Positions 27,263-62,592 of a stretch of DNA of 64,000 nt are shown here, piece by piece. The DNA lies in the NCBI RefSeq assembly GCF_000981445.1, contig NC_027218.1, positions 1,302,001 through 1,366,000 of the forward strand, written 5' to 3'. Made by a program: the position numbers and the translations under genes. The stretch's first letter is position 1. Every line of letters starts with the position of its first letter. The notes below the pieces were generated by a model, which was not told the DNA's origin, did not search any database, and worked only from the letters and a program-made list of their open reading frames with translations. This stretch comes from Babesia bigemina. Lineage: Eukaryota.

Positions 27263-30200
27263 ATGGCGCCTAAGAAGCTGACTGACTGCCCGGAAAACCT
27301 CCGGGAGGCTATCGACTGGTTGATCCAGGTCAAGAATGGCGGTGATGGTAGAGGTCTTGAAAATCTGGTGAAAGCTTTGAAAAAGTTGATTGAAAAGGCC
27401 AAAACTAATGCTACCAAGAGCCTCGATACCAGGAAAGACCAACTCGAATGTCCTACTAAATCCGCTTCTGGCAACGGTGTCTCCTACTGTAAGCAGAAGC
27501 AAGATGAAATTAAGCAAGCTAAAGAAGAACTTGAAACATGCAAAAATGATTCCGAACAAAAATCCAAAAAAGACAAAGACCTAAAAAAGCTTCAATCCGG
27601 CTTAGATGAGCATATTGCCAAAGATCATCCTCTTGATGAGTCTACTAGGCAGACTAAAATTGATGAAGTCAAAAAGCATCAAGAATTTGTTACAGAGTTT
27701 CAGAAGAATTTTAAAGACGCTTTAGATAATAACATCCTTGATAACCTCTGTTCCGGCCTCGAGAAATTCGTCGGCTTCGACTCTGCCACCAAAGGCTACG
27801 ACGGTACTGGCATCGTCTACTCCGACCTTGATAGGTTGTGTGACGCAGTGATGGCGTTCTTGCACGGGGTGTTGGAGAGTGTTAAGGATGATGATGCAGT
27901 TAAAACGTACGATAAATACATTACTTCAGGTAATTTAGATAGTGTTCTCACAAAATTAACTAAACAAATTGGCTCCGGGCGTACTGGGCTTGCAGAGTCT
28001 GTCGACGCGGTGAAGGGGTGGTTGGAGGGGTATGATGGGAAAGTAAGGGAGATGACAAAAAGTGTTGTAGGCGATGAAGGGACGATTAGGGATCTTGAAA
28101 ACCAGATTATCCAGAACATTCGCAATGTGAAATCGCTGGAGTCTAAAGGTTTTGACATTGCGCAATCTACGTGGGTCCAAACAGTGGCTAGGGATTTGTA
28201 CAGTAAGTTAAGTGACATTAAAAAAGCCATTAACGTGTTAGATCCGGAGCTGAAACATAAGTTGCAATGCGACTTTAATATAATTGAAATGGGAGTTAAA
28301 AATTTGGAGAGGTGCGCTGAGAGTGATCAGATTGAGTTAAATACGTTGGGCAGTATGTTGAGTGAACAACTCAGAGAAATGGAAGAAGCCATCAGCAAGG
28401 AGGCCATAGATAGAGGAAATATGTGCATTAATACTTTGGTAAGAGAATTCAAGACAAATATTCAGGCGCCTTTACTTTATGTTACCCATTCGTTGGAAGC
28501 TGTTAAAGCACGCCTGCAAGCTTGGAGCGATAAGGCTAAAGCGGTCGTGAGTATGGCGATAAAGAACATCGAAAAAATAAATAATAAGTTATTGAGAAAT
28601 GATAGAGATTATGGAAATGTGGAATTGGCTGTTCACACATTGAAACACCAGGCTGACGCACTTTGGAAGGCCATTGGAGCGGCTAAGATTAAGTTGAATA
28701 GTAAGGTAAGAGATGCGCTTTTGGAAGTTGACACTGTGGAGAGAGCGGTAAAAACGGGGTTGTATGAAGTAAGAGACGCTATTAATATGGGTATGGCGGA
28801 ATATGTGAAGAAATTTAAAAACTCATTAGAAGCTGGTATCAAAGCGGCCGGTAGTCTCAGTAAAGGCCAAACTGATTCATATAATGGGATTGACGCGTTA
28901 TGGCCGAATATGATTGAAAACGGTGTATTGAGGGAATTGGCATCTGGAATTAAAGTGGCCAAAACATCTCTCGATACAAGCAGTGTTGCATACAATTTGG
29001 AATATGCCCTAAAGTGGATTAACGAAGCCAATGAGACATGGAAAACTCAGCTTTCGAAGCCCGCAAATCTTCTCGATAGTCTACAAACAACTCTTACCGC
29101 CGACCTTCAGGCGCCCGTTGAAAAAGTGTTGCAGCAAGACCTAGGTGACTCTGGGAGAGGTGAAATGCAAATCAAGCTTGATCCCACGTATTTTTCGTTT
29201 TATCTTGGCGGTGGCGGAATGAGGGGCAAGAAACAAGCGCTTAACGAAACTATAAGTACGATTAAGACCGAGGTAGAAAATGAACTTACTAACATCGAAC
29301 ACGTTACCACTAATGTAGACAATAAAGCACTAAATTCAGCTTTCCAGGATATAAAAGATAAACTTGCAACTTTTATCGAAGCTATTAGAAAAATAATTGT
29401 GAATGTAGGAAACAGTAAGAAAATCGATAGCCCATCGGAGGACAGAGGCGTAATGAATCTGTTACACGATGCAGAAACGATGCTAAACAGAACGGAAGGT
29501 GGCAAAGGGATCACATATGATCTTTCCTTGGATCTTCAAGGGATTATGACGGCTACTGCTAGAATACTGGGTGAACCTGGTCAGGGCAATTCAGAAGGGA
29601 ATTTAAAAGATATATTAAAGCAGGCCGGTATATTCTACAGCACAACCATTCAGCAAAATATCGAATCCTTCATCTATGGAATAACCAATTTCATCCACGA
29701 CCAAGTTCACTTGAGATCAAATAACATGCGGCAAGACGCCCTAATTAGGTATGTTGAGACAACTAGAGTACAGCTGGAGGGATTGAAGAGCAGTATTAAA
29801 ATGCGACACTTTGAAATAGATAAAATCATAAATGCTGATAAATACACGAGTCTCAAAGGTCTTATAAAACAATTGCGCAACGCTTTAAGATCCGCGAATT
29901 TGGACGAACTGGCCAATGTGTCCCATCTGACATACAAGATGAACGATGTCTTCAAAAGTTTCTTTGAAGAGCTACAAAATCAGGAAGATGTAAAGCCGTT
30001 GACAGGATACGTGAACAAAGTATACAAATCGTTGGATGCATTAATGCGTGAGATGTTGACTAAAAGGCATTTCCACCATGAAGTCACGGTGCATCTTACA
30101 AGGTTCGGCAGCACTCTCAGTAAATTGGTCGTCGAAAGTATGCACGACGCGCCTAAGAGGGTGTTAAATCCCCTGAAAAATGGATTTGAGAAACTGCTTG

Positions 30201-32392
30201 TGGAACTCAATCAGACCTACGTCAACACCTACTCTGGGAACCCTTCGATTGAGAGCGACGAGAAATATGCTAAAATTTGTTTGACATCACTTAAGATTCT
30301 GCAGCGTGACATGGGAGCATTGAGGTCATGCTCTAACAAATGGCGTAAAGAACATATCAACTTATCGACCCATGTCGGCAATTTGCTGAAAAGCTACGGT
30401 TATGGTGTTGCGACAAATCCGGGAACTCGAGACGGCGAATTGCGAAATTGTGATGAGTTTACGGGTTCTAATATACAGGTAAAAATTAACGCCGCGATTT
30501 CAGGCGCGAACGGTAATGAACATCTCAACAACTGTAAACTTAGGGAACAGAAAGACATTAATATTATGGTCGTTCTTGCCTGCTTATGCAATCACCTGGG
30601 GCAGTATTATAATTGCTGCCATTACGTGATCCACCCTAAACCTACTCCTCCCTGTAACATATATCAGATGCTCGAGTGGCTGTGCGGCCTACCGCATAAT
30701 CCTGTTTATAGCAAACTTAAGGGAGAATGTAAAACGTTGTTTGACAAACCAAAAGAACGAGAACAAGACGAGTATTCCACCTTCAAACCATACGAACTCA
30801 CCCTAGATGCCACTACTGAGTTGTCGGCGGAATGTGTATTAAGCGAATTAGAAAAAGTATGTTACCACGCCGAAAGAGTATTGATTGCAATTCAAGGCAA
30901 CGGTCACGCCGAAGGGCGTTATGCCTGTGACTTTAGCACTAACGTGGACCAGTTGTCGTACCCGTCTGGCCCTGGTGCTTGCTTTGAATTACTGATAGAT
31001 ATTTTATCTAGAATATACCATCAACTCTACTTCCTAATGGCACAGTGTTCTCATAGTTCTGAGCTCAATGGTTGGAGTGACTGCTGGTACGGTAGTGGAG
31101 TTGCCGGTTCGTCATGGAAGTGCAATAGCCTTCAATGCCCCAACAAAACAGGTGACCTAATCCACAACCAAAGCTGTGACCAAAACTGTAGCCAAAAGCC
31201 TGAGTGTGGCCTTAAGTCACCTCTGCAATCATTCCTCGAAGATGGACTCCCTGGATTTTTGCCGCACTCTTTCACCAAACCTGGTTGCAAATTGGAATGC
31301 AGTGTGCCTAACCACAACGGTATTCCATGTATCACTCCCATGGGATTCAAGGATCTTAGCGTTAGAGCTTCACACAGGCAGACTGGTCAGTGTATCTACA
31401 GTGTACTTAATGATTTCTGTGGCTATTCGGATAAGCCACTTAGCAGAATAGATGCTTATGTTCTATGCCTAATGCGTACGCCGCCCACAACACTGGGTGA
31501 CATGTTCGCATTCTATTACAATTTCCTCGAAGGATTGAAAAGTATCGCTGGAGAGCATCAAATAAGCGCTCTCCATAACGCCGTCATTGAAGCCAATTTT
31601 GAAAATTCCTCCACAACATTAGACATTACTCCAATGTTTCACAGCAGAGAGCACTCACAGAAAACACACGACAAAGGTGACCTTCAATCTCTCGTTAGCT
31701 GTGATCTAACCTACATTCCTGCATACCCCTGCGGTCCATATGTAAGACCATTCACTAGAGACGTCCGTTGCATATTCTCCTCAAAATACAAGATGCAATA
31801 TCTCTCGTGGGTTTTGTATATCACTGAGACGTTTCACAAATTGCTTAAACAATTGTACGACGAATGCTGTAAGAATTGTACCGCCAAGGGAACCATATGC
31901 TATGAATTGAATTGCGCTCATGGTTGTAAAGTTAAGAACAAAGAAAAGCCGTCATCCACAGCTGAACATCAACGTGCTTGCAAGTCCATTGTCATGTGCA
32001 ATTTAACACTTCCGACATTACACAAATACGGCCTCTACTTCGGAAGCGCAACATGGCTCAGTGGCGCCAAAGATCACAGAGTGAAGAGGACTTGCGAAGA
32101 TTTTTGCCACACACTAAAAAAGGTCGTGTCTGACAGCTCCGTTATTTCACAACTTGTCCATGAAACAATTCCCAAATTCCTTTGGGAAATTAGAAGTAAA
32201 TTCTTCTACACCCTCCTTTCCCTCTGGCTCCTCTCTTTGTTGTACCTCACCCACATCATGGTCATCCGCCTTGACCTGCTCCACATCAAATCGCATTTGC
32301 ACTCACCCTCATCTCATCGCATAGCTGCTCAATCACTACTTGCTGCTGCACGCGTTGGCAAACTTGCCAAGATCACATACCTGCAACCTTGA
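27263..32392 (+). CDS. ves1: Variant erythrocyte surface antigen (VESA1-like), 1709 aa, intronless
   Basis: MAPKKLTDCPENLREAIDWL, GYDGTGIVYSDLDRLCD, Cys-rich C-terminal region SPLQSFLEDGLPG / PCITPMGF, a TM segment, and the tail RLDLLHIKSHLHSPSSHRIAAQSLLAAARV. Confidence 0.92.
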   Translation: MAPKKLTDCPENLREAIDWLIQVKNGGDGRGLENLVKALKKLIEKAKTNATKSLDTRKDQLECPTKSASGNGVSYCKQKQDEIKQAKEELETCKNDSEQKSKKDKDLKKLQSGLDEHIAKDHPLDESTRQTKIDEVKKHQEFVTEFQKNFKDALDNNILDNLCSGLEKFVGFDSATKGYDGTGIVYSDLDRLCDAVMAFLHGVLESVKDDDAVKTYDKYITSGNLDSVLTKLTKQIGSGRTGLAESVDAVKGWLEGYDGKVREMTKSVVGDEGTIRDLENQIIQNIRNVKSLESKGFDIAQSTWVQTVARDLYSKLSDIKKAINVLDPELKHKLQCDFNIIEMGVKNLERCAESDQIELNTLGSMLSEQLREMEEAISKEAIDRGNMCINTLVREFKTNIQAPLLYVTHSLEAVKARLQAWSDKAKAVVSMAIKNIEKINNKLLRNDRDYGNVELAVHTLKHQADALWKAIGAAKIKLNSKVRDALLEVDTVERAVKTGLYEVRDAINMGMAEYVKKFKNSLEAGIKAAGSLSKGQTDSYNGIDALWPNMIENGVLRELASGIKVAKTSLDTSSVAYNLEYALKWINEANETWKTQLSKPANLLDSLQTTLTADLQAPVEKVLQQDLGDSGRGEMQIKLDPTYFSFYLGGGGMRGKKQALNETISTIKTEVENELTNIEHVTTNVDNKALNSAFQDIKDKLATFIEAIRKIIVNVGNSKKIDSPSEDRGVMNLLHDAETMLNRTEGGKGITYDLSLDLQGIMTATARILGEPGQGNSEGNLKDILKQAGIFYSTTIQQNIESFIYGITNFIHDQVHLRSNNMRQDALIRYVETTRVQLEGLKSSIKMRHFEIDKIINADKYTSLKGLIKQLRNALRSANLDELANVSHLTYKMNDVFKSFFEELQNQEDVKPLTGYVNKVYKSLDALMREMLTKRHFHHEVTVHLTRFGSTLSKLVVESMHDAPKRVLNPLKNGFEKLLVELNQTYVNTYSGNPSIESDEKYAKICLTSLKILQRDMGALRSCSNKWRKEHINLSTHVGNLLKSYGYGVATNPGTRDGELRNCDEFTGSNIQVKINAAISGANGNEHLNNCKLREQKDINIMVVLACLCNHLGQYYNCCHYVIHPKPTPPCNIYQMLEWLCGLPHNPVYSKLKGECKTLFDKPKEREQDEYSTFKPYELTLDATTELSAECVLSELEKVCYHAERVLIAIQGNGHAEGRYACDFSTNVDQLSYPSGPGACFELLIDILSRIYHQLYFLMAQCSHSSELNGWSDCWYGSGVAGSSWKCNSLQCPNKTGDLIHNQSCDQNCSQKPECGLKSPLQSFLEDGLPGFLPHSFTKPGCKLECSVPNHNGIPCITPMGFKDLSVRASHRQTGQCIYSVLNDFCGYSDKPLSRIDAYVLCLMRTPPTTLGDMFAFYYNFLEGLKSIAGEHQISALHNAVIEANFENSSTTLDITPMFHSREHSQKTHDKGDLQSLVSCDLTYIPAYPCGPYVRPFTRDVRCIFSSKYKMQYLSWVLYITETFHKLLKQLYDECCKNCTAKGTICYELNCAHGCKVKNKEKPSSTAEHQRACKSIVMCNLTLPTLHKYGLYFGSATWLSGAKDHRVKRTCEDFCHTLKKVVSDSSVISQLVHETIPKFLWEIRSKFFYTLLSLWLLSLLYLTHIMVIRLDLLHIKSHLHSPSSHRIAAQSLLAAARVGKLAKITYLQP

Positions 32393-33149: not shown

Positions 33150-33432
33150 TGGTGAGTGCTTGCTTGAGTGATTGATATGTTCGCAGGTTGAGGGAACTGG
33201 GAGCGGCAGTGTACGTGTTGCAGTAGGTGAGTGCGTTGCTTGAGTGATTGACATGTCTGCAGGTTGAGGGGACTGGGAGCGGCAGTGTACGTGTTGCAGT
33301 AGGTGAGTGCGTTGCTTGAGTGATTGATATGTTCGCAGTTTGAGGGGACTGGGAGGGGGAGTGGTACGTGTTGCAGTTGGTGAGTGCGTTGCTCAGGTGA
33401 TTGATATGGTTGCAGGTTGAGTGGACTGGGAG
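33150..33432 (+). repeat. 76-77 bp tandem repeat, about 3.7 copies
   Basis: GCTTGAGTGATTGA recurs at 33162, 33238 and 33314, with a variant at 33391. Confidence 0.92.
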
Positions 33433-33444: not shown

Positions 33445-33918
33445 ATGAGCGGAAAACTATGCTCCGATTGTAGTAGAAGTTGTTATCTTCCAATTTCTTG
33501 TAATTGCTGCCCCTGGTGTTGTACAAAATGTAGTAGTAGCGACAGGTGCAGTATATGTTCGCAACTCTACCAAGTGCGCATTGGTAACAAAACATGCCAT
33601 CCTTCTGGATGTGGTGCCGGAAATTATAGATGTACTAGCACCACCTGTCAATGTAACTGTTGTCTTCAGAAACGCCGTTCCTCCGGAGACTCCTCTCACA
33701 CCAGTGCTCAGCGTTCCACGAATGACATTGCCTCCACTGGCCTCACCGTTCCCATCATCATCGTCCCCGTCCTCATCCTCGTCATTATTTTCATATTGAT
33801 TTACGTCCTGTGCCTTATGCATCGTAAACACACAGACGATGGTGCTTGCAATAAGGAGTTTGAGCACGGATGCATAACTTGCGCCTTAGGCAACGCCTAT
33901 CCCTCTACCCTAGTATAG
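33445..33918 (+). CDS. Small Cys-rich single-TM protein (ves-linked), 157 aa
   Basis: CNCCPWCCTKC...CSIC...YQVRI...CQCNCC, a Ser/Thr stalk, and TM VPIIIVPVLILVIIFILIYVL. Paralogues occur elsewhere in the window. Confidence 0.8.
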   Translation: MSGKLCSDCSRSCYLPISCNCCPWCCTKCSSSDRCSICSQLYQVRIGNKTCHPSGCGAGNYRCTSTTCQCNCCLQKRRSSGDSSHTSAQRSTNDIASTGLTVPIIIVPVLILVIIFILIYVLCLMHRKHTDDGACNKEFEHGCITCALGNAYPSTLV

Positions 33919-34491
33919 CCTCACCTAACCGGCAAGTTTTTAGTTGATGAAGATTTGATGAGATGGCGTCGTGCTGGTTGATCTATTGGGATTGGTGGCT
34001 TCATGTGAATAGAAAAGTGGAACTTGTCCGCTGATAATCCAGGCCGTCATCCGATGGGTGATAGGCCCTCTATTAGGTTAGCAAGCGGCATGTGAGTGAG
34101 ACATTGCTGTATACCGACGTGATCGGTGGCAGCGTTGTGGTGATCGGAAACAACAAAGAAGCGACTTAGGTCACTTGGCCACATATCAGAGTAACCATGG
34201 TGGAACAAAGCAGATGTTTGACAGACTTGGCGCCTTGAGTGGATAGTACATTGTTAGTTGCTCTATTGCTAAATCACAATCAAGATGTCTTATGAATGCA
34301 TGCGGGAGGGTTTGTTAATGGCGTGTCAGCGTTGTGAGGTATGGATTTACGGCTGCCCCAGCACAAGGGGGATGGCATGGTAGGGGTGGGGGGTATAGGC
34401 ATTGTGAATCGTCAGTTGGTTGAGGGTGTTTGAAAGTTAAGGTTCGTTGTTCATCGTTGCGCAGTTTAATCGTCAAGTGCTCTGAATTAAG

Positions 34492-34659
34492 ATGGCTGGT
34501 GAAGAATACTGGGGCCCAGTTATTGGTGGCCTTATTGCATTCCCTGCCCTCGTTGTCTTGGTCCTTTATATTTGCGGTAAAGTCCATAACATGAGTCTTG
34601 GTGAGACCTTCGGCCGACTGCGTGACGCATTCCGTGATTCAAAGCCTTCACTCCAGTAA
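34492..34659 (+). CDS. 55-aa single-TM microprotein (below the ORF-track cutoff)
   Basis: MAGEEYWGPVIGGLIAFPALVVLVLYICGKVHNMSLGETFGRLRDAFRDSKPSLQ. The tail is identical to that of 60265-60483. Confidence 0.75.
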   Translation: MAGEEYWGPVIGGLIAFPALVVLVLYICGKVHNMSLGETFGRLRDAFRDSKPSLQ

Positions 34660-35028: not shown

Positions 35029-35634
35029 TTAGCTGTAAAACGCGATGCAGAACGGTACTTTGCGGACGAGGAAATCGCGGATGTTGCGGCCCACCGGGAA
35101 GCGGAAGATGCACAGGTCGAGCAGGATGATGGCGACGATTATGGCAACGATGACGGCGGCGATGGCTTGGGGAGAGGTGGAGGGATCTGGGGAGACAGTG
35201 ATGGAATGACCGTCACCATCGGAACCGAGATCACCGGACCGAGCAGCGGTAACGGGGAGAACAGCGGGCTGCTGTTCACCGGTGGAAGGCAGGGAATGCT
35301 CTCGACTGCTGGAAGACTCGGAAGCAGAGGCAGAGGAAGGCTGTAGAGGGGGGAGGACGGGGTTTTTACAGCTGTCAGGCTGCTCTGTACATTTCTTAAC
35401 ACAACAGTCACATTTGCAGTCTTTCTCCTTGCCTTCACATTGTTTCTTACATCTCGAAAGTTCGCATTCGTACTTTTTACCTCTGTTTTTGATGCGCACC
35501 ATGTAATGTGCCTTACATCCATTGCAACCGCTGCTACTCTTACATTTTTCACAACACCAGGTACAACAGTAACACCCGATACCCATTCGACATCCCATAC
35601 CACATATACACTTCATCCAATCCATCCCCGTCAT
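35029..35634 (-). CDS. Small Cys-rich single-TM protein (ves-linked), 201 aa
   Basis: CYCCTWCCEKC...CNGC...YMVRI...CKCDCC, an S/P stalk, TM AIAAVIVAIIVAIILLDLCIF, and tail ending PFCIAFYS. Confidence 0.85.
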   Translation of the reverse strand: MTGMDWMKCICGMGCRMGIGCYCCTWCCEKCKSSSGCNGCKAHYMVRIKNRGKKYECELSRCKKQCEGKEKDCKCDCCVKKCTEQPDSCKNPVLPPLQPSSASASESSSSREHSLPSTGEQQPAVLPVTAARSGDLGSDGDGHSITVSPDPSTSPQAIAAVIVAIIVAIILLDLCIFRFPVGRNIRDFLVRKVPFCIAFYS

Positions 35635-36423
35635 CTTCCCCTCCCAGTCCCGTCAACCTGCAAACATATCAATCACTTAAGCAACGCACTCATCAACCAC
35701 TCATGAACACGCACCTCAGCAGCGACACTGGCCGTCTCCCATCTGGGCCCCAACGAACCATACAACCGCCATCCACCGCACCGCCAGTCACATCACATCT
35801 ATTCAGATATCAGAACAGAAATACAGCTAAGTCAACGCATGTTGAAAGTATCATGGACTTGGCATGCATGTCAACCGGTACCAGTGTAGCAGTCAGCTCC
35901 ATCCATCACAGACCGTACAACGTTGGCAGTGCCTAAGACTGCTGTAACATTTCTGTCATAATGGTAGTCCGTGTAAGCAACTGTACGTGATTATTACGTT
36001 TCTCATCTCTGCCGTTGCCATCAATGCTACCTAACCGCGGCGGTCACTGGTTATCATGCCACAGAGTCGGCGATGCTCATCACCTAACTCCTCATCAGAA
36101 CACTAACATGTCAGTGACCAATCTAACAGGCGACCTACAATATTACACAGTACAGCAATTGTCATCTGCCTATGTTAGTGGCCAATCAACCGGCTTCACA
36201 TAGCACTGGCTATGTAGGATGGCCTAGGCATGTCTCACAGATAACTCACAACTAAACAACCCAAACTGAATCATCTATTAAGTGTTATACATAAGCCAGG
36301 TTATGCCTGTAATTAGCCACCTTTTTCACACCACGGTGCCGTAGATGCTGCGGTAGCACAACTCTTCACTACTACTCCCCACCCCATTGTTATCTAAAAA
36401 TGACTACGTTAATGCGATAATTA

Positions 36424-38095
36424 CTATTTTAAGTTGAGTAGCTCGTCGGGATCGTCTTCGAAGTAATCGACGTCTTTGTATAGTGATAGCATTTTTCTGC
36501 TCGGTATGAGTAGCGCCTTAACATCGATGATGTGCGACGCCTTGGTGCGTATAAGGTGTGATCGGATGTAGAGGACGTCCATGCGGTAGAGGAAAGTGTG
36601 GAGTATGTACAGCGCCACAAGAGACCACAGTGCAATGAGAAAGTAGAGGAACGGCATCCGGATGTGCCATGTGATTTGGTCGATTTGCCGGAACAACTCG
36701 GTGAAGTGGTCGGATTGCAGCGCCTTTTTGAGTTGGGCGTTGAGGTCTCCGCAGCGAATGGCACGATTATCGGTGACCAAGAGATTTGCGTTGCGATACG
36801 TGAATCCGTAGCGGTAGAGTGTAGGCAGCAGTCCGGCGCACTGGACGGTGGACAGGCAGTGACAAGTGTCCTTCCCACCGTGGGTTCCGGGTTGGCAAGG
36901 GCATGTGGCGCAGCCGGAGGCCGTGCAGTCGATGTTGCCCAGCGCGTGGAGTACGTTGTAGAGCAACTCCCAGAACTGCCATGCCAGGTGTAGTATCCAC
37001 GTGATGTATAGCCCGGCGTGCTTCTGCGGGTAGGTGTGGCGGGCGTGGAGTCCTAGGGGTTGGAGGTAAGGAGCGCATCCACGGGGTGACTTGCAAGTGG
37101 AGTCGTTGAAGAGGCTCGAAAGAGCACCGTGACTTTCGTGGTCATGACCGGCGAGCGACACAATGGCACTGGTGAGTTTCGGATTCTGGTAGCTGCCGTG
37201 GAGCTGTGTCCACAGTGGGAAGAGGCCGTCGATGCCGTCGCTGTTGAGATGCGATATGAGATCGGAGGCATCGGTGTACGTGCCGCCACGGTGCTTAAGA
37301 TGGTCATGACTGTCCCACTTCCGTAGCAGCTGAGCATACAATGCAAACACGTCGGCGAGTGAAGAGGGTGCAGCGGGACATAGAAAAAACAGGGTCCGAT
37401 AGAGCACGAACAGGCATGAGTCGGCGTCACGGCACATATCTCCGAGGCGCCTGGCGAGATCCCAGCCGGTGCCACTTATGGAGGCAGCAAATCCAAGGTC
37501 CCAGAAGCCGAGCGGAGTGAGACACTGCTGGCCGAGTTGGTTGGAGGTGCAGTTGGCACATTCTATGACCATGTCAGCAATGGTGAGGGTATGCGGCAGT
37601 AGTCCATTGCATCGGTCGGAGAGGAACGACTGGAGAGGCGATGTAGGAGGGCAGCCGTGACTGGTGGTAGAGGAAGTGGTTGTTGTAGTTGCACCACTAG
37701 TGGTAGTAGTGGACTCCGTGTCAAATATATGACACTGCCAGTGGTGTGACTGCACCTGCCGGCCGTACGCGCACTCCCGCCACCCCTTGACCCGGGCGGT
37801 GCTGCGGCAGCACTGGGAGTACAGGAAGTAGAGCACTTTACAAAGGCGGCACACCATCTCGCATAGCATATCAAGCAGTGCGTCAGGGTCAGCTGGGTAG
37901 CGGAGCCTGGCGCGGTTGTTGGAGAAGTCCACCGAATACGGATAGGCGGCCAGGTCGAAGCCGTGGCCGTTGCCCTGGATGGCGGTTAGTAGGGCGGTGG
38001 AATGTGAACATGTTTCCCTTATGGTGAACGGCAAGCCTTCAATGCACTTAGCCATGATCGCATCCTCCTTGTTGGGGATATCGCCGTCGTGGCAT
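36424..38095 (-). CDS. 5'-truncated ves-family gene (C-terminal VESA domain, TM and tail), open reading frame
   Basis: AIQGNGHG, GWRECAYG, SPLQSFLSD, CLTPLGF, CAPYL, LPTLYRYGF, TM, and tail MDVLYIRSHL...YKDVDYF. The N-terminal VESA region is absent. The frame stays open to 38220 through antisense sequence. Confidence 0.75.
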
Positions 38096-38299
38096 CTGCG
38101 GTCTCTCGCATTCCTCATCTTCGTTAACACGATGCTATACCGCTTGGATGTGCTGCGCATACGATCACACTTTATACGCTCCAAGGCTTCACACCGCATC
38201 GACGTCATGGCCTTACTCACTAAAGGCCGGAAGATGCTTTCACTTTACAAGGACGTCGGCTACTTCGACGAAGACCCTATTGGTGGAATCGGAATCTAA
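38096..38299 (+). pseudogene. 3' terminal fragment of a paralogous ves-family gene in opposite orientation
   Basis: LRSLAFLIFVNTMLYRLDVLRIRSHFIRSKASHRIDVMALLTKGRKMLSLYKDVGYFDEDP parallels the C-terminus of the 36424 gene. Confidence 0.85.
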
Positions 38300-48651: not shown

Positions 48652-51600
48652 ATGGCACCGCAATTTAAGAAGCTCACTGACTGCCCGGAAAACCTCCGTG
48701 AGTCCATCGACTGGCTCATACAGGTGAGGCATGGGAATGGTATGGATGGTATTGGTGAGTTGGCCAAAGCTTTGCAAAAGCTGATTGGGGAGGCTATTGA
48801 AAAAGCGTATACTACTAATATTGATGCGCTTCTTAAGCTTCTTGATTCTGCCAAGTCTTACAACTGTTGCAAGGATAAAGTGGCTGAAATTGGGAAACTT
48901 AAGGACTCCGAAAAAATTGAAGATGAGAGTTTAAAGAAACTCTTACAGTGTGTTGAAGATCATAAAACGTCCTGTTACAATCACCTGGACCATTCCCAGC
49001 AGAAATCATACGATGAGATTGAGTCCAAGTTGGATCAACTTAAAAATCATAAAGAGAGTCTTGAAGGATTGACGGATGAAAGTCAATGTAAAGTGTTACT
49101 TACTAATTTATGTGATGGCCTCGAGACCTTCCTAGGTTACGACTCAAAATCCAAAGGCTACACTGGCCAGGGGATTGTGTACTCCGACCTTGACAGGCTG
49201 TGTGACGGGGTGATGGGATTTTTGCTTGGTGTGCTTAAAGAGGTACATGAAAATAACAACTTATCACCTTATAAAACAACATTAAATGAAGCAGTAACTA
49301 AATTAAAAGAACAGCGATATAATGGTAAAAAAGGTTTGGTGGCTGTGATTGACCCGGTCAAGCAGGGGATTGCGGGGTGGTTGGGGGAGGTGGAAAAAAG
49401 AAATAATGATGTAACGAAATATATCAATTTTTTACAAAATGACGCAATTAACGCTGCTACTGGTATCGAAAAATGGAAAAATCAAGCATTTGATGAAGCC
49501 TCCAAAAAACATGGTGAGTTGCACAATTGGATCAAATCCATCAAGGCGCTATCCAACCAACCGTATTATGCCATTCATGCGCTCGAATACGTCGATAAAA
49601 ATCTCAAAAACGATTTACTTCCGCATATCACTTTACTTAATAACGCCATTGATACTTTCAAGCAGAATACGGTTGAAGATTATAATGGACTCAACGCGGT
49701 GGCAAGCGATGCAAAATTTCAAATTAATGCTCTTGAAAACATGGTTAAACAAGTTGCTGTAGAACAGCAGCAGATTTGTAGGAAGAAGCTGGAAGATGCG
49801 TTTCTCGAAAAAATTCAGTCGCCGATTGAAAAACTGAATGAGAAGCTGAAGGGTCTTAATGGTGAATTAAAGACGTGGATAGATAAGGCCCATTTGTTAG
49901 TGAGCAAAGCAACCGCACAATGTGAAAGGATAGTAAGGGAGGTTCAAGATCAAGGCCATGGAAAACAAAAATCCGCGAATCGTACAGCCGTGGAGACAGC
50001 GGCGGAAACATTAAGGGACAGAGCGAATGTGCTCTACAAGGCGGCGAATAACGTAACGAAAAACATTGACAGCTGGGTTAGGGCGGCACAGAGCCAATTG
50101 CAGCAGTTGGAAGATGCTGTAATGTGGGATTTAAATGGCGTTAAAGATAACCTGTTGGCAGGGTTTGGGAAGTATTTGACGGGTTACGTTGGCAAAATTC
50201 AACAGGAGGTAAAGAAGATTACGGACTATAAGACAGGTTTACAAAAAATCGAACATGCGGTGAAGGCCTATGCTACGGACTTCAAGAGTGAAGAGGGTTT
50301 TGGGACAAAAGTGAAGATGTGGGTTGAGGAGATTATTGAAGACAGTGCTTACGTCAAGGAGAAGCTTAAGGCTTATGCTGGCAGTAAGGTCCATCAAGGT
50401 AGGTTCAGGCAGCCACAATATACAGCGTCGCAGCCAGATATAGCAATTTCCAAGTTTTACCAGGATATTGCAGAGGTTTTCAAGACCATGCTAAGAGCAG
50501 AAATCCGTGATGCAGCTTTAATGGTACAACAGATGATCGACTCTGATGGCGGACCTGCAGAAAAAATCGAAGATAATATCGTAGCTATTCATACTGGTTG
50601 TGAGCAATTCGCAAGTGGCATTGAAGCAGCCATTGAAAAGAAAGCATCTGGTATTATGAATCCAATGTCTGCAGGTTTTTATACGTTTGCTAAGGATATA
50701 GCTAGGGAAATTGAGAAAGTTGTTTTGGAAAACCCTGCACGACCTGATTCTCTACAACTTGAAGATTCTCTTGAAAACGCAGTCCGCTATACTCTTGCCA
50801 AACTCATTGCCTCTGCTAGGCAAAAAGCTGCTGACCTTGGATGGCTCACCGGCGAGGACAACAACCAAGCCAACATCGGTAAAGTGGACGTCTCTCTCGA
50901 TGTGGCTACAAAGCTTAATGAGGCTCTCAGAACGGCGACTGATCCCGATTCCTCAACTGGCAAATCCTACGTCGAGGATAAAAAGGCTCTCGCCGATTAC
51001 TCTGTAATCCAGGACATATCTCAGGAGCTGGAAAGAGAGTTACCATTAGCAATTGTAGATGGCAGTTCTACGAATAAAGTCCAATTAACTAAGTTTACAT
51101 CGTCGTTCACCAATGCTCGGCCTGATGGCGCCAACGAAACCAAGAAAAAATTACTCACAGAGAAAATCAAAGAAATAGAAACAAAGGTGCTACAGAAGCA
51201 ACATTTGGGGCAAGTTATGAGCACCACGACTAACGGTGCTACGGATGATAAATTCTACAGTGATACCTTCCAAAAATTGTGCGAAGTCGTAGAAAATAAA
51301 CTAAAAACTCTGTGCAAAGCTGTTGCCGATTTGGTTACGAATAAGGGAGATGAGAACACTATCACTCCAGATGACAAACGTGGCCTACAAAACCTCATGG
51401 CTGACATGAAATCCATGCTTGATGAGAAATATTTAGATGGTAAATTTTATAAACTTCCAAACAGACTCAGACAGATACAGAAACGTCTCAACGGCATAAT
51501 AGGCACCGAGGATGATTATGATAACAGTGAAACCCTTGTCGGCATACTCGATGCCTGTGGGAAATTTTGCGGCCAAACGATCAATGAGATAGTGAAAGAT

Positions 51601-54495
51601 AGCATCACCCAAATCAAGACTACCGTGAAAGTAGAAGTCGCGTCCAAAATCGCGAGCATCCAAAGATCGGCTCTCGCCAATTTCGCAAAGTCCAAGGAGG
51701 CCGAGCTTCACAATCTGCAAGAGCTGATCAAGGATAAAAATAGGGTGATTGCAAAAATAATTAGAGACGATTTGGAAAGCGAATTGAAGGGTATGATGAA
51801 GAAAATGAATGCGCAAAAAGGTACGCTTGATACAATCCACGGTCTTGCAACACCTTCGCCAGGTACACCTGTTAAGGACAACGCTCAAAAATTCCGACAA
51901 ATCTCAACTAATTTCAAATCGTATTACAATACAATTCACGAGCATATTGAAGACCAACTTATCCCAAAGCCGAAGTCCAGTCCACCCCCACCTCCCATTT
52001 CCGGTGGCGGTTACAGAGCACGTCCGGCAGCACCTATCCCTCAACCTAAAGGGAATCCACCAGGCCGAGTCGGAATGTCTGCCAAAACTGCGCCAACAGG
52101 CCAGCAGCCTCCACAAACCACCAAGAATCTCATTGCAGAATACATTGAGAGACTTAAAGTGCATTCCGACAGACTTTTCGGCACGCTCTCCGCTGGTTAC
52201 TTTAGTAGATCCTTCGCAACAAAACTGGAAAATCTAAAAGAGTTCCTCAGCTCCATGCGCTTTTCAAATTTTGCAGGTATTGGCAGTCCATTATTCGACA
52301 TCCTTAGGTTTGGCATTCAGTCTCTCACAACCGAACTTGGGAAGGCGTATATATCGGTGTGTGATACTCAGGCGTACAATTTCCAATGGAATGTTGATAA
52401 AAATTCGGAGAACTGCGCCAAGGTTTTCGTTACCATACTCGGAATGATTTTCGAAGATTTGAGTACGTTAAAAACAGAATGTGACAGACGTTTCTCCATA
52501 AGTACAATAAGCCTATCTTCGGATCTTGGAGGTTTGTTTAAGCGCTACGGTTACGTCGTAGCCAAGGACTCCAAATCACAAGACGGTGAGCTGAGGCGTA
52601 GTGACGAGATGAATGGTACGGCAGTTCGAGGGAGAATCGTCGGCGATTATCCACGTGTTTTTAATTCCTCTGCTGATACTAGACATGCCATCAACAGTCT
52701 CTTCGATTGCTTAGAAACGTATAATCAGGTATGTCACCTGTCCACTTTCTATGCATGGAGGCAGCCATGCTCCGTGTACGAGATGCTTGTTTGGTTGGCC
52801 GGTTTGCCTTACAACAACGTATATGCCGTGTTACTATCTGACGGTTTAACTAACGTTCTGACGAAGCCGAAGAGGAAACCGATAGAGACGGGTGAGGATG
52901 ACTTCGAAGTGGAGTTCGACGACCTGAAAGCCTACTACGCCGATACCTATCCTAATCGGGTAACACATGGCGACATTATTGCAGCGTTGGGCCATGTCTG
53001 CTCAACGTCATATGACGTGTTGGCCACTATTGCTGGTCACGGTGACGAATTCACAACGTACGCAGCTGACTTCTGTACGAACTCACTTAATCTAAAATAC
53101 CCTGCGTCAGGGGAGGAATGCTTGCATAACATCGTTGATATCCTACGTAGAATGTTACCGCAGCTCCAATATCTGTTCAGCCGATGCAAACTAAGTGCTA
53201 TGCACGGTGGATGGTCGCAATGCCTTTACGGCAAGGACGTCACGACAACCAAATGGCCATGTAACAACCACTCATCCGACAAACCTAGCACTAAAGCAAA
53301 TTGCCAACCAACGTCGCCACTAATGAGCTACATAACTGACTCACTTCCCGGTCACCAGCCTCACCAATTGAGTTCCATTGGATGCAAGTATGACTGCGCC
53401 AACTGTCCGTCCGTGTCCAGAAAAGGTATGCCTTGCCTAACTCCACTTGGATTCAGAGGTTTCTCTGGGTCCACGCGCAAAGGTGAGGATATATGTGAAA
53501 TTTTGGAAAAACTCTTCTCAAACTTCTATTTGTCGTCTCTATTCTGTATAGTTCCCAAAACGCCGGCATCATTGCCCGAACACTACGGTTTCGTATTATC
53601 GTTGGTTGAGGGTTGGCACAGTACCAAAACGTCACGCAAAGGCCTCATTATGGAGTCCATTGAAACATCAATCGGGAAACAATCGATTGGACTATATGAC
53701 GACACGAGCAAGCTGACAAATGCGCTTGCAAATGCGTATGGAAGCAGCCAGACTATTCATCAAGATAAAAACCACCTAGGTCCACTTGTTGACTTGTCAA
53801 GTCTGTCGATGAATACCGTATGCCAGAAGAAAGATGCGAAACTTCAATGCGCACCTTACCTTACATCACTGTGCGTAGATGCGTATATTTACTCAACCCA
53901 AAAGCAATCCAACACCTACCTGTCCTGGGCCATCTACCTCCCATGGACATTCTGGGATCTGCTCAACAATCTCTACAACGCTTTCTGCTCAATTAACTGC
54001 CAGGACTGGGCATGTCGTGAATGTCTTCGTGGTGATAAGTGCAAAAAGGGAGGGCATGGTGTTGTTGATGAAGATAAGCCAAATAACAAATGCCAATGCC
54101 CTTCCATCGTCGACTGCAAAGGCGTCGCACCAACGCTCTACCAGTATGGTTTCGTCTTTGGTGAAGCGTCGACGCTGAATGACAAGGCATCGCCGAAGAC
54201 GTGTTCCGATTTCTGTAGCCAGTTGAAGAATGTTCTCAATTCAGAATATTTCAAGAAGCTGTTCAGAGAATGTGACAACTTCCTATATTATATCCGGTTC
54301 CCCTTCATGACATTAACCCTCGCCCTCTGGCTCCTCTCCTTGTTGTACCTTTTCCACATCATGATCATCCGCCTCGACCTGCTCCACATCAAATCGCATC
54401 TTCACTCACCCTCATCACACCGCATCACCGCTCAATCACTACTCGCAGCCGCACGTGTCGGCAAACTTGCCAAGCTCACCTACCTGCAACCTTGA
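48652..54495 (+). CDS. ves1: Variant erythrocyte surface antigen (VESA1-like), 1947 aa, intronless
   Basis: MAPQFKKLTDCPENLRESIDWL, GYTGQGIVYSDLDRLCD, PCSVYEMLVWLAGLPY, PCLTPLGFRGF, TM, and tail HIKSHLHSPSSHRITAQSLLAAARVGKLAKLTYLQP. Confidence 0.92.
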   Translation: MAPQFKKLTDCPENLRESIDWLIQVRHGNGMDGIGELAKALQKLIGEAIEKAYTTNIDALLKLLDSAKSYNCCKDKVAEIGKLKDSEKIEDESLKKLLQCVEDHKTSCYNHLDHSQQKSYDEIESKLDQLKNHKESLEGLTDESQCKVLLTNLCDGLETFLGYDSKSKGYTGQGIVYSDLDRLCDGVMGFLLGVLKEVHENNNLSPYKTTLNEAVTKLKEQRYNGKKGLVAVIDPVKQGIAGWLGEVEKRNNDVTKYINFLQNDAINAATGIEKWKNQAFDEASKKHGELHNWIKSIKALSNQPYYAIHALEYVDKNLKNDLLPHITLLNNAIDTFKQNTVEDYNGLNAVASDAKFQINALENMVKQVAVEQQQICRKKLEDAFLEKIQSPIEKLNEKLKGLNGELKTWIDKAHLLVSKATAQCERIVREVQDQGHGKQKSANRTAVETAAETLRDRANVLYKAANNVTKNIDSWVRAAQSQLQQLEDAVMWDLNGVKDNLLAGFGKYLTGYVGKIQQEVKKITDYKTGLQKIEHAVKAYATDFKSEEGFGTKVKMWVEEIIEDSAYVKEKLKAYAGSKVHQGRFRQPQYTASQPDIAISKFYQDIAEVFKTMLRAEIRDAALMVQQMIDSDGGPAEKIEDNIVAIHTGCEQFASGIEAAIEKKASGIMNPMSAGFYTFAKDIAREIEKVVLENPARPDSLQLEDSLENAVRYTLAKLIASARQKAADLGWLTGEDNNQANIGKVDVSLDVATKLNEALRTATDPDSSTGKSYVEDKKALADYSVIQDISQELERELPLAIVDGSSTNKVQLTKFTSSFTNARPDGANETKKKLLTEKIKEIETKVLQKQHLGQVMSTTTNGATDDKFYSDTFQKLCEVVENKLKTLCKAVADLVTNKGDENTITPDDKRGLQNLMADMKSMLDEKYLDGKFYKLPNRLRQIQKRLNGIIGTEDDYDNSETLVGILDACGKFCGQTINEIVKDSITQIKTTVKVEVASKIASIQRSALANFAKSKEAELHNLQELIKDKNRVIAKIIRDDLESELKGMMKKMNAQKGTLDTIHGLATPSPGTPVKDNAQKFRQISTNFKSYYNTIHEHIEDQLIPKPKSSPPPPPISGGGYRARPAAPIPQPKGNPPGRVGMSAKTAPTGQQPPQTTKNLIAEYIERLKVHSDRLFGTLSAGYFSRSFATKLENLKEFLSSMRFSNFAGIGSPLFDILRFGIQSLTTELGKAYISVCDTQAYNFQWNVDKNSENCAKVFVTILGMIFEDLSTLKTECDRRFSISTISLSSDLGGLFKRYGYVVAKDSKSQDGELRRSDEMNGTAVRGRIVGDYPRVFNSSADTRHAINSLFDCLETYNQVCHLSTFYAWRQPCSVYEMLVWLAGLPYNNVYAVLLSDGLTNVLTKPKRKPIETGEDDFEVEFDDLKAYYADTYPNRVTHGDIIAALGHVCSTSYDVLATIAGHGDEFTTYAADFCTNSLNLKYPASGEECLHNIVDILRRMLPQLQYLFSRCKLSAMHGGWSQCLYGKDVTTTKWPCNNHSSDKPSTKANCQPTSPLMSYITDSLPGHQPHQLSSIGCKYDCANCPSVSRKGMPCLTPLGFRGFSGSTRKGEDICEILEKLFSNFYLSSLFCIVPKTPASLPEHYGFVLSLVEGWHSTKTSRKGLIMESIETSIGKQSIGLYDDTSKLTNALANAYGSSQTIHQDKNHLGPLVDLSSLSMNTVCQKKDAKLQCAPYLTSLCVDAYIYSTQKQSNTYLSWAIYLPWTFWDLLNNLYNAFCSINCQDWACRECLRGDKCKKGGHGVVDEDKPNNKCQCPSIVDCKGVAPTLYQYGFVFGEASTLNDKASPKTCSDFCSQLKNVLNSEYFKKLFRECDNFLYYIRFPFMTLTLALWLLSLLYLFHIMIIRLDLLHIKSHLHSPSSHRITAQSLLAAARVGKLAKLTYLQP

Positions 54496-55090: not shown

Positions 55091-55242
55091 CATATGAGTT
55101 ATTTAACCGGCGGTGCGCTGGATGGCGATCATCCGGTTGGCCGTGTATCACTGATGGGATACGGCATAGTGGTGTCACCTGTGGGTGCCTAGGCTACGCA
55201 TTGTATGCCCTTGCAGGCTTATCGTGGTGGATATGTAAAAAG

Positions 55243-55623
55243 ATGGTGGTGCAGGAGTGCCCTTGTGGCAATGGTTGTGATACATCTACTTGTAAGTGCT
55301 GTATCGTGTGTTGTGATAGATGTAATGGTGACAGTACTTGCTCACAATGTTTGGGGAGGATACGTGAGTCCATGGTGAGTTTGCCATGTAGGCCTGAGTA
55401 CTGTCAGAAAGCATGTAAGAAAAAAGATGGACGTTGCCACTGTGGTTGTTGTGAAAACGATGATACACACGTTGCCGCAGGTGTCACCGTTCCCGTAATC
55501 ATTGCCATAATCTTCATCTTCATCCTCCTGTTCGATTTATGCATCTTTCGCATTCGAGCCTTCCAATACGTCCGCGAATATATCGTAAGCAAATTACCGT
55601 TTTGTATCGCATTTTACAATTAA
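55243..55623 (+). CDS. Small Cys-rich single-TM protein (ves-linked), 126 aa
   Basis: 18 Cys in the first 70 aa (CKCCIVCCDRC...CHCGCC), TM VPVIIAIIFIFILLFDLCIF, and tail PFCIAFYN shared with the 35029 gene. Confidence 0.82.
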   Translation: MVVQECPCGNGCDTSTCKCCIVCCDRCNGDSTCSQCLGRIRESMVSLPCRPEYCQKACKKKDGRCHCGCCENDDTHVAAGVTVPVIIAIIFIFILLFDLCIFRIRAFQYVREYIVSKLPFCIAFYN

Positions 55624-57083: not shown

Positions 57084-57950
57084 CTACGACAAGCCAGCGT
57101 ATGTCCTCCGACTGAAGGCGGGGTAGCGGTCAATGTTCACCTCATCGGGAATTCTGTCACCGACGAGATGACTCGGGGATCTGCAGGAAGACACAGGCGA
57201 GATGGGAAATGCGGCGCGGATTCCAGTCGTCATCCGGTGGAATGTCTCGGGAAACATGCCCCACATGACAATAAAGCATGATAAAATGATCAAACCGATG
57301 ATTAGAACACCTAGCCATATTCTGCACCAGTCTTGGGAACATAGTTTGTTGCAGTATGTGCATATAATGACGCAATTTTTGTTCATGTCTCGTACACCAA
57401 TGGCCCACCTATCGCAGTTGTAGGTACAGTTAACACCGTGAAGTTTCCTGCAGTTGTTTTCGTATTCTTTGCGATCCCATACAGGTTTGCCGTTGTCGTA
57501 TTTGACATGGCCTTGGCATTTGATGCCATCTGGGCACCTGCCAATTACGTAGCCGTCGCAAGGACCTCCATTACAATTCCTCGGATCACACCACCTACAG
57601 CAGCTACAAATCACGCCATTACATTGCGTTCCGCAGCTGCATTGATAACATATGCATTTCTCAGATTCTGCGCATTTCCTCTCGCAGCGCTTACAATTGT
57701 TACTAGGTTTTTTCTTACAGCTCTTGCCATCGCTACCATTTGCATAACAATCAGTCGGACAACCACAGAGACGAATATAACACTTACATGGCTCATTCGT
57801 GCTGCAGTTCTTTATGCAGCCCTTACATCCGGGGCTACAGCACGACTTGCACGTTTTACATGCGTCCTTAGAGCATGGACCATTGATGTTCTCATCACAT
57901 GTAATATTTAAGCATTTACACTTGTTACCCTCCACCTGCTTCTCCGTCAT
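57084..57950 (-). CDS. Long Cys/Lys-rich single-TM protein, 288 aa
   Basis: About 210 aa of dense CxC/CxxC/CC including CSCCRWC, TM IWLGVLIIGLIILSCFIVMWGMF, and a ~55-aa tail. Confidence 0.8.
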   Translation of the reverse strand: MTEKQVEGNKCKCLNITCDENINGPCSKDACKTCKSCCSPGCKGCIKNCSTNEPCKCYIRLCGCPTDCYANGSDGKSCKKKPSNNCKRCERKCAESEKCICYQCSCGTQCNGVICSCCRWCDPRNCNGGPCDGYVIGRCPDGIKCQGHVKYDNGKPVWDRKEYENNCRKLHGVNCTYNCDRWAIGVRDMNKNCVIICTYCNKLCSQDWCRIWLGVLIIGLIILSCFIVMWGMFPETFHRMTTGIRAAFPISPVSSCRSPSHLVGDRIPDEVNIDRYPAFSRRTYAGLS

Positions 57951-59499: not shown

Positions 59500-59700
59500 T
59501 GTAAAAAGCTTAGTGGCCGTCCTATCTATTGTACTCATTGCGCTCCTCGTCATCATTTTCATATTGCTTGATGGCTTGTGGTCTGTGCATCGTAAATACA
59601 CATGGTGAATGGTGCTTCCCATAGGGGTAGTTGTAAAACTTATGCGAAACCTGCGCTTTATGCACTGTCCATCCCTCTACTCTACTATAGCCTCAACTAA
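59500..59700 (+). pseudogene. Relic of the TM/tail part of the 33445-type Cys-rich gene
   Basis: LLVIIFILLDGLWSVHRKYTW* versus ILVIIFILIYVLCLMHRKHT. DNA similarity continues past a premature stop, and there is no Cys-rich N-terminus. Confidence 0.6.
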
Positions 59701-60560
59701 CCAGCAAGTTGTTAGGTAATGGAGATTCGATGACAGTATCTCACTAGCTGATATGTTTGACTCGATGATCTCATCTCAAGAGAAAAGTGGAACTTATGTG
59801 GTGGTAATCCAGTCCGTCACCTGATAAGCGATAGGCCATCTGTTAGGTTAGCAAGTGGCATGTGGTTGACGTGGCGCTGCATACTGGCGTGCTTGGTGAC
59901 AGCATTGTGCCAATCAGAAACAACAAACTAGGATTTCAGGGGAGCTGGTCACTGAACGGAATAACCAGGGTAGAACAAAGCGGATGATAGACAGACTTGG
60001 CGCTTCTTGTGGATACCGCATTGTTAGTTGCTGTATTGTTAAATCACGGTAAAGACATGTCTTATTAGTGCATGTGGGAGGGCATATTTGTGTCATGGCA
60101 GCGTTGGGAGATCCGGACTCACGGTTGCCCCAGCACAAGGTGAATGGCATGGTAGGGGTTGGAGGATGCTCATTGTATACCTTCAGTTGGTTGAGGGTGT
60201 TAGAGTATTGAGGTACGTGATTAATAGCTGTGCAGAGTTTATTGCCAATTAGACTGCAAGAAAGATGGGTAATTGCGTCGGTTGTAGTAAAAGTAGGCAA
60301 GAGGCTCATGACGGCACGTGCAAGGCCATTGCTTTTGGCTACATCTTTGGAGGCACTATTCTAATGCTCGGCATTCTTCTATTGACACTATACATCTGCG
60401 GAAAAGTCCATAACATGAGTCTTGGTGAGACGTTCGGCCGACTGCGAGACGCATTCCGTGATTCCAAGCCTTCACTCAATTAATCCCCTAGCCTCATCCA
60501 GTCCACATATTCTCACTGTTGCCATGTCACATCCGATCTCAATTTTATGACTTTAACTGA
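59520..60560 (+). repeat. Segmental duplicate of 33760-34740
   Basis: Shared blocks TATAGCCTCA.CTAACC.GCAAGTT, GAAAAGTGGAACTT, TTAGGTTAGCAAG.GGCATGTG, GACAGACTTGGCGC and the microprotein tail. Confidence 0.85.
60265..60483 (+). CDS. 72-aa single-TM microprotein
   Basis: MGNCVGC N-terminus, TM AIAFGYIFGGTILMLGILLLTLYIC, and a tail identical to the 34492 ORF. Confidence 0.75.
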   Translation: MGNCVGCSKSRQEAHDGTCKAIAFGYIFGGTILMLGILLLTLYICGKVHNMSLGETFGRLRDAFRDSKPSLN

Positions 60561-62301: not shown

Positions 62302-62592
62302 CGCTCCCAGTCTCTCAACCTGCAAACATATCAATCACTCAAGCAGCACTCACCAACTGCAACACTACCACTGCCGCTACCACTCCCCTCAACCTGCGAA
62401 CATGTCAATCACCTATGCAGCACTCACCAACTGCAACACTACCACTGCCGCTACCACTCCCCTCAACCTGCGAACATATCAATCACTTAAGCATACACTC
62501 ACCAACTGCAACACGTACCACTGCCGCTCCCAGTCCCCTCAACCTGCAACCATATCAATCACTTAAGCATACACTCACCAACTGCAACACGA
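62302..62592 (-). repeat. 74-76 bp tandem repeat, about 4 copies (reverse complement of the 33150 repeat)
   Basis: CTCAACCTGC recurs at 62314, 62388, 62462 and 62538. Confidence 0.92.

What the first reader, a model, noticed from the sequence alone, without database searches (positions are those of the whole stretch)
34492..34659. Unannotated 55-aa TM microprotein with a tail under clear purifying selection
Seen: this ORF and 60265-60483 share an identical 30-aa stretch LYICGKVHNMSLGETFGRLRDAFRDSKPSL. All 7 nucleotide differences in it are synonymous third positions (CTT/CTA, TAT/TAC, ATT/ATC, GGT/GGA, ACC/ACG, CGT/CGA, TCA/TCC), while the N-termini and TMs differ and flanking DNA is more diverged. 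Both lie downstream of a 33445-type gene. Inference: a third cassette component, with a variable outside and an invariant cytoplasmic docking motif with a juxtamembrane Cys that may be palmitoylated.
Basis: seen in the sequence. Interest (0 to 1): 0.8.

Follow-up and report, generated by a model that had tools for sequence, protein, structure and literature searches.

The report
Tiny membrane-protein family beside Babesia antigens
This 55-amino-acid reading frame is one of at least twelve related short genes of the cattle parasite Babesia bigemina, with a variable front end and a conserved tail, which likely encode tiny single-pass membrane proteins that may be sent to the infected red-cell membrane like the variant surface antigens beside them.

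Summary
ORFs 34492-34659 and 60265-60483 share 30 identical residues, and all 7 nucleotide differences are synonymous (pS 0.31, pN 0; flanks 25-31% diverged). VESA1b tails in the window show the same signature, while a co-duplicated gene remnant decays neutrally. A profile search extends the pair to at least 12 copies, all from B. bigemina. Eleven are annotated as hypothetical proteins, including the sister ORF. I found no record of the 55-aa copy and no paper on the family.

The tail is conserved but not invariant: L36/F40/L43/F47 stay hydrophobic in 11 of 11 members with a TM while polar positions vary, which fits an amphipathic helix. The juxtamembrane Cys is present in only 3 of 11. The gene upstream of copy B is only a frameshifted remnant.

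Best reading: small N-out/C-in membrane proteins without signal peptide, from ves1 loci, likely trafficked like VESA1, with the tail helix as a membrane or partner anchor. There is no expression evidence: the two annotated members checked are missing from one RNA-seq table and one proteome, neither of which is a sensitive test. This is an undescribed family of a known general kind.

The parts
34492..34659 (+). Copy A, 55-aa ORF: short acidic N-terminus (1-9), TM (about 10-28), tail 29-55 with a predicted amphipathic helix at 36-49
34564..34653 (+). 30-codon stretch identical in protein to copy B, with 7 synonymous differences
60265..60483 (+). Copy B, 72-aa ORF with a Cys-bearing N-terminus. 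Annotated as the 91-aa spliced model P0001 (start 60166, introns 60213-60235 and 60269-60287); the unspliced start is likely the right one
   Evidence: P0012 and P0002 have similar N-termini
33919..34491 (+). Non-coding 5' flank duplicated with the gene: 75% identical to about 59691-60235; its last ~140 nt are also echoed in upstream extensions of paralogue models P0010 and P0012
34442..34464 (+). Candidate 23-nt GT-CAG 5'-UTR intron, at the same place as 60213-60235; removing it does not open copy A upstream (inferred, no RNA data)
33445..33918 (+). Upstream Cys-rich single-TM gene (157 aa), member of a separate four-copy family in the window
59528..59690 (+). Frameshifted 3' remnant of a 33445-type gene upstream of copy B; pN close to pS (neutral internal control)
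27263..32392 (+). ves1b-type gene (1709 aa) heading the locus of copy A; C-terminal TM and 41-aa tail shared with 48652-54495 and the gene ending at 63290
   Evidence: ves1b names for its paralogues
35029..35634 (-). Convergent Cys-rich single-TM gene (201 aa, P0003) downstream of copy A

Best explanation
The ORF is one of at least twelve copies of a Babesia bigemina gene family whose tail is under purifying selection, and it likely encodes a tiny single-pass membrane protein, predicted to sit N-terminus out and C-terminus in, that would enter the secretory route through its transmembrane helix and probably reach the infected red-cell membrane as VESA1 does. Its predicted amphipathic tail helix (residues 36-49; face L36, F40, L/I43, F47) would anchor it at the inner leaflet or dock on one shared trafficking or skeleton partner, while the short N-terminus varies between copies. 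Shown: family, selection on the tail, conserved hydrophobic periodicity, and ves-locus position of the two window copies. Inferred: translation, topology, export, partner.
For: Selection: pS 0.31 / pN 0, with pS close to the flank divergence. VESA1b tails in the window give pS 0.29-0.37 and pN 0.03-0.07 (3 of 3 pairs), while the co-duplicated remnant gives pN 0.18-0.22 against pS 0.22-0.31. Family: 9 of 10 profile hits are B. bigemina hypothetical proteins of 67-95 aa; with P0002, P0017 and copy A this makes 12. Helix: four positions hydrophobic in 11 of 11; profile hydrophobic moment 0.59, column-shuffle p = 0.0025; residues 36-49 helical in both AlphaFold models. One TM in each of copies A, B and P0002 (mean hydropathy 2.3-2.7) and no Rx(x)L motif in them. 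Both window copies start in an AAG-ATG context, as do three Cys-rich neighbours, against 54 of 2527 ATGs in the window. VESA1 itself has no signal peptide, one TM and a short, relatively conserved tail in the erythrocyte cytoplasm (PMC6630957, passages).
Against: No evidence of expression or location. BBBOND_0305410 and 0307670 are absent from the RNA-seq table of 3,721 genes (PMC9806345) and from the 366-protein proteome (PMC4066756). Neither test is sensitive: the ten consecutive gene numbers of the two ves blocks are missing from that table too, the strain differs from the reference, and each protein gives only 2-4 tryptic peptides of 7-25 residues. The other nine annotated members were not checked. 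Amphipathicity of copy A alone is weak against shuffles (p 0.24 on the Eisenberg scale; 0.007-0.056 on Fauchere-Pliska). The two models disagree on a break between TM and tail, with pTM 0.45 and 0.36. No homology to the VESA1b C-terminus (hhalign probability 0.2%). One member (P0014) has the tail without a TM.
Confidence: 0.5

Rival explanations
1. A real protein that stays in a parasite membrane (ER, spherical body or plasma membrane) and acts as an accessory or escort subunit for VESA1b or the Cys-rich TM neighbours.
For: Same selection evidence. A 9-residue N-terminus in copy A is a poor surface antigen. Small-xxx-small motifs in the TM of 10 of 11 members suggest helix packing. Babesia has export helpers such as BbVEAP (PMC9477259, passages).
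Against: A housekeeping escort does not need 12 copies with divergent N-termini and TMs (TM pN 0.48-0.55, about equal to or above pS). All named hits are from one species.
Confidence: 0.25
2. An oligomeric membrane-shaping or small-pore protein built like influenza M2 (short ectodomain, one TM, amphipathic cytoplasmic helix).
For: Architecture. Atlas feature hits include M2 and NB at 0.80-0.81. The M2 architecture is recalled, not tested.
Against: The Atlas scores are below 0.9 with low recognition, a level that shuffled proteins often reach. The TM has no conserved polar or His residue and is only 49% identical between copies.
Confidence: 0.1
3. The ORF is the last exon of a longer spliced gene, as in several annotated models.
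For: P0001 has two upstream exons. P0008, P0010, P0011 and P0012 carry N-terminal extensions. Lengths of 127-160 aa were not covered by the word-based searches.
Against: In copy A the homologous upstream frame has ATA for ATG and an in-frame stop. All 11 candidate introns near the start leave at most 6 open codons and no Met. The unfiltered profile search found no long relative. The models come from ab initio prediction with manual improvement (PMC4066756 section 8).
Confidence: 0.07
4. Silent, co-duplicated DNA whose tail stays alike through gene conversion or a non-coding function; no protein is made.
For: Ves loci are known for conversion and transposition (PMC4066756 section 24). No expression was seen.
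Against: Conversion would erase synonymous differences too, yet pS matches the flanks (p = 0.41). All 7 differences fall on third positions. No RNA structure (z 0.3 to 1.4 in 4 of 4 folds) and no Rfam match. Family substitutions are conservative on the helix face.
Confidence: 0.08

Closest known systems
VESA1 (ves1a/ves1b of B. bigemina; ves1-alpha/beta of B. bovis)
   Same: No signal peptide, one TM, variable N-terminal part, short conserved C-terminal tail (PMC6630957). Same loci, and the same tail dN/dS signature.
   Different: 55-95 aa against 1,700-1,950 aa; no detectable homology to the VESA1b C-terminal 199 aa; unrelated tail sequence.
smORF (B. bovis) and ves2 (B. bigemina)
   Same: Small multicopy genes interspersed with ves1 (PMC4066756, PMC6630957).
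   Different: Those have signal peptides and no TM anchor; smORF has an RxxL motif and is reported only in B. bovis; ves2 is homologous to the 5' end of ves1b. This family has a TM and no RxxL in the three copies tested, and shows no similarity to the ves1b N-terminus in the window.
Unnamed B. bigemina species-specific TM genes noted by Jackson et al. 2014 (PMC4066756)
   Same: [quoted passage not shown]
   Different: In the parts I read no such family is defined, named, counted or tested.
Plasmodium small PEXEL-negative exported proteins (SEMP1, REX2)
   Same: Small, single TM, no signal peptide, no export motif, species-restricted (PMC4111544, passages).
   Different: No sequence relation found. 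In SEMP1 the N-terminus is needed for export and the C-terminus is dispensable; here the C-terminus is the conserved part, and the gene is multicopy.

Membership tests
ves1 / VESA1 | Homology in the conserved C-terminal domain | tested here: not met
   hhalign of the family profile against the last 199 aa of the 27263 ves1b: probability 0.2%, E 0.25; tblastn of ves tails does not hit either ORF
ves1 / VESA1 | Single C-terminal TM, no N-terminal signal peptide, short conserved tail | tested here: met
   Hydropathy scan and alignment; no dedicated signal-peptide predictor was run
ves1 / VESA1 | Displayed on the infected red-cell surface | not testable with these tools
   Needs localisation experiments
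ves2 | Homology to the 5' 500 bp of ves1b, with signal peptide and no TM | tested here: not met
   The ves1b N-terminal 200 aa hit only the two ves1b starts in the window; a TM is present
smORF | Signal peptide, RxxL motif, A/B repeats, no TM | tested here: not met
   No RxL or RxxL in copies A, B or P0002; TM present; no direct alignment to smORF sequences was possible
Cys-rich TM neighbours (33445 type) | 15-Cys ectodomain pattern and homologous TM-tail | tested here: inconclusive
   Copy A has no such domain; profile-profile probability 9%, E 0.0035, over TM and tail, with a shared IRD-x-[FL] word
Plasmodium PNEP-like small exported proteins | Export across the parasite boundary without a cleaved motif | not testable with these tools
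   Only the architecture matches
Palmitoylated juxtamembrane-Cys proteins | Conserved Cys at the cytoplasmic end of the TM | tested here: not met
   Cys in 3 of 11 members, Met in 4, Leu in 4

The most novel reading that the evidence does not exclude
B. bigemina has a fourth variant surface family beside ves1a, ves1b and ves2: miniature VESA-like proteins with ectodomains of 9 to about 35 residues, switched on with the active ves1b locus. Their amphipathic tail is the portable signal that routes and anchors signal-peptide-less membrane proteins in the red-cell membrane, which makes the open question of how VESA1-type proteins are trafficked testable with a 27-residue tag.
Probability: 0.22. 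Interest if true: 0.72.

Novelty: new variant of a known kind. Interest (0 to 1): 0.5.

Why it matters
How membrane proteins without a signal peptide, such as VESA1, reach the red-cell membrane in Babesia is stated to be unknown (PMC6630957), and only 13 exported proteins or families are confirmed (PMC9477259). A 55-residue protein with the same layout and a defined conserved helix would be a minimal reporter for that route. The family also shows that ves loci of B. bigemina carry small genes that are missed or mis-modelled: copy A appears unannotated, and several annotated models seem to have spurious 5' extensions.

Tried and rejected
No whole genome is held for the window, so paralogue DNA and context could not be read. 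No RNA holder was listed, which says nothing either way, and no reads were laid. The complex predictor was not available, so oligomer state and partners are untested.

Word-based protein searches found only 2 of the 11 annotated members and nothing among 161-2000 aa proteins. They are too insensitive to show absence from other Babesia species, and the 50%-identity library can hide such members behind a representative. Metagenome contigs: 196 pattern matches, none confirmed. Pfam: no family for either ORF; 4 weak families at E 0.018-0.074, each in 1-2 of 11 members. PDB sequence search: best E 3.3 and 0.35, not meaningful. Atlas: only sub-0.9 generic small-TM hits. No fold search was run because a one- or two-helix model at pTM 0.36-0.45 would match anything.

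P0016 (606-aa leafhopper repeat protein, E 8e-4) was dropped as spurious. P0014 (tail without TM) counts as a family member but was left out of the 11-row column counts. RNA structure or an Rfam family as the cause of conservation was rejected, as was coding in another frame. Similarity to 57084-57950(-) is unresolved: BLASTP E 0.047; hhalign probability 51% over the Cys/TM part only. Earlier findings of the scan: none returned.

Full report
Observation. The two ORFs exist as stated: 34492-34659 (copy A, 55 aa) and 60265-60483 (copy B, 72 aa). They share exactly 30 residues, with seven base differences, all synonymous third positions. Over those codons pS is 7/22.75 = 0.31 and pN is 0/67.25. 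The homologous flanks differ at 137 of 543 sites upstream and 22 of 71 downstream, and the TM codons have pN 0.48-0.55. The 30-codon window is picked after the fact, so I also used the 27 codons after the TM: pS 4/19.8, pN 2/61.2, Fisher p 0.03. Against the flank rate the deficit of replacements has p 4.7e-6, while the synonymous count fits the flank rate (p 0.41). Neutral simulation gave such a run in at most 27 of 100,000 trials at any of five divergence levels. The other five frames differ at 9-11 residues; the stretch has no unusual RNA fold and no Rfam match. Selection therefore acts on this protein frame, and recent gene conversion does not explain it.

Internal controls. The tails of the three ves1b-type genes in the window give pS 0.29-0.37 and pN 0.03-0.07 (3 of 3 pairs). 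The remnant of a 33445-type gene that was duplicated in the same block as copy B gives pN 0.18-0.22 against pS 0.22-0.31. The microprotein tail behaves like a VESA1 tail; its neighbour of the same age behaves like dead DNA.

Organism and annotation. The nearest database proteins are named Babesia bigemina hypothetical proteins. P0001 (BBBOND_0305410) is letter for letter a spliced model of copy B, with introns of 23 and 19 nt, so the sister ORF is annotated. Copy A's sequence is not on record, and no hit carries its N-terminus; word-based searches did not cover 127-160 aa. The annotated 5' exons are doubtful. The homologous frame in copy A has no ATG and contains a stop, none of 11 candidate introns opens copy A upstream, and paralogues P0002 and P0012 have N-termini like the unspliced copy B.

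Family. A profile of four sequences against 1.84 billion representatives gave 10 hits at E <= 0.001. Nine are B. bigemina hypothetical proteins of 67-95 aa and one is an unrelated leafhopper repeat protein, which I dropped. With P0002, the cluster mate P0017 and copy A, the family has at least 12 members on three contigs (8, 2 and 2). Eleven have a TM; P0014 has only the tail. No member from another species was named, but the libraries are clustered and small ORFs are often not called, so the range is open. Upstream extensions of P0010 and P0012 match the non-coding 5' flank of copies A and B, so the unit that spreads includes its 5' flank. Trimming the models at their likely starts (inferred) gives two N-terminal types: short, acidic and Cys-free (A, P0008, P0010), and Cys-bearing (the other eight).

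Anatomy. One hydrophobic segment is followed by a 27-residue tail (32 in P0015) with net charge +2 or +3 in 11 of 11 members, which predicts N-out, C-in by the positive-inside rule (established knowledge). Mean pairwise identity is 49% in the TM and 61% in the first 22 tail residues (55 pairs). S35 and G37 are invariant, and positions 36, 40, 43 and 47 are hydrophobic in 11 of 11 while 38, 41, 42 and 46 vary. The profile hydrophobic moment is 0.59, with column-shuffle p 0.0025. For copy A alone the signal is weaker (p 0.24; 0.007-0.056). Two AlphaFold models put residues 36-49 in a helix but disagree on a break after the TM, at pTM 0.45 and 0.36. The juxtamembrane residue is Cys in 3 of 11, so palmitoylation there is not a family trait. 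Small-xxx-small motifs occur in 10 of 11 TMs, but oligomer state is untested.

Context. In the window each of four intact Cys-rich single-TM genes (33445+, 35634-, 55210+, 62291-) lies 0.7-1.1 kb downstream of a ves1 gene or fragment, and they share 15 Cys. Only two microprotein copies are present. Copy A follows an intact Cys-rich gene; copy B follows only the frameshifted 3' end of one. The microprotein is thus an optional passenger of ves loci here, not a fixed third part. Its profile shows no homology to the VESA1b C-terminus and only faint likeness to the Cys-rich neighbours (probability 9%) and to 57084-57950 (51%, Cys/TM part).

Expression. No RNA run was listed. BBBOND_0305410 and 0307670 are absent from the RNA-seq table of PMC9806345 (Mexico strain mapped on the reference, 1 CPM filter) and from the proteome table of PMC4066756. 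The gene numbers 0305310-0305340 and 0305380-0305430, which include genes named ves1b, are missing from that RNA table too, while 0305300, 0305350-370 and 0305440-490 are listed. Ves1b genes at shared positions are orthologous between strains in only 0-3.3% of cases. The proteome's iBAQ sheet asks for two peptides per protein, and these proteins give 2-4 peptides of 7-25 residues. These blanks are weak, but there is no positive evidence. Nine annotated members were not looked up.

Mechanism. Most likely the TM acts as an uncleaved signal-anchor, as proposed for VESA1 (PMC6630957; PMC9477259), and the protein follows VESA1 to the red-cell membrane. There the short variable N-terminus would face out and the tail helix would lie on the inner leaflet or bind one shared partner. 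I put about 0.9 on a functional protein and 0.5 on this whole reading. Rivals are a parasite-internal escort subunit (0.25), an M2-like membrane shaper (0.1), silent DNA (0.08) and a terminal exon (0.07).

Literature. Seen: PMC4066756 (abstract, Results parts 1-2 of 4, sections 8 and 24, passages, rows of supplement 3; supplement 1 not searchable); PMC9806345 (passages, rows of supplement 1); PMC6630957, PMC9477259 and PMC4111544 (passages); PMC10463595, PMC10471129 and PMC5660447 (passages, and supplement searches without hits); PMC9531838 (supplement search only). Main-text searches for eight member gene numbers found no paper, and topic searches showed none on this family. The library lacks most subscription papers, figures are not held, and some supplements were not seen, so the multi-copy genes marked in Figure 2 of PMC4066756 may include these. 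That paper does note the general class: species-specific genes with a TM and a conserved C-terminal end.

Verdict. A real, selected, multicopy family of very small membrane-protein genes at B. bigemina variant-antigen loci. It is undescribed as far as I could search and of a general kind already noted. Interest 0.5.

Noticed in passing
window 33445-33918(+), 35029-35634(-), 55210-55623(+), 61848-62291(-): Four Cys-rich single-TM genes share 15 invariant Cys, and each lies 0.7-1.1 kb downstream of a ves1 gene or fragment. No convincing Pfam or Atlas family. Possibly a larger undescribed ves-linked family than the microprotein.
   Followed up: partly
window 33151-33432 and 62314-62590; single unit near 35635-35716: 74-76-bp tandem repeats (3.7 copies each) end just upstream of the Cys-rich genes' start codons; candidate promoter or 5'-UTR element.
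   Followed up: no
window 57084-57950(-): 288-aa protein with 43 Cys, one TM and a 59-aa tail; faint likeness to the microprotein family around the TM.
   Followed up: partly
window 34442-34464 and 60213-60235: 23-nt GT-CAG segment at the same place upstream of both copies, with ends kept and the inside diverged; candidate 5'-UTR intron.
   Followed up: partly
window 34230-34383: Differences between the two flanks avoid one position in three (permutation p 0.019). Copy A has a 32-codon ORF at 34285-34383 with AAG-ATG; the matching frame of copy B has two stops. May be chance.
   Followed up: no
window 36424-38208(-), 38087-38278(+), 60741-61373(-): ves fragments: a 594-aa C-terminal ves1a-like ORF, an inverted partial copy of its tail, and a 210-aa ORF that looks ves-like by eye only.
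   Followed up: no
P0008, P0010, P0011, P0012, P0001: Annotated models of the family carry N-terminal extensions; those of P0001, P0010 and P0012 translate the shared non-coding flank. True starts are probably further downstream.
   Followed up: partly
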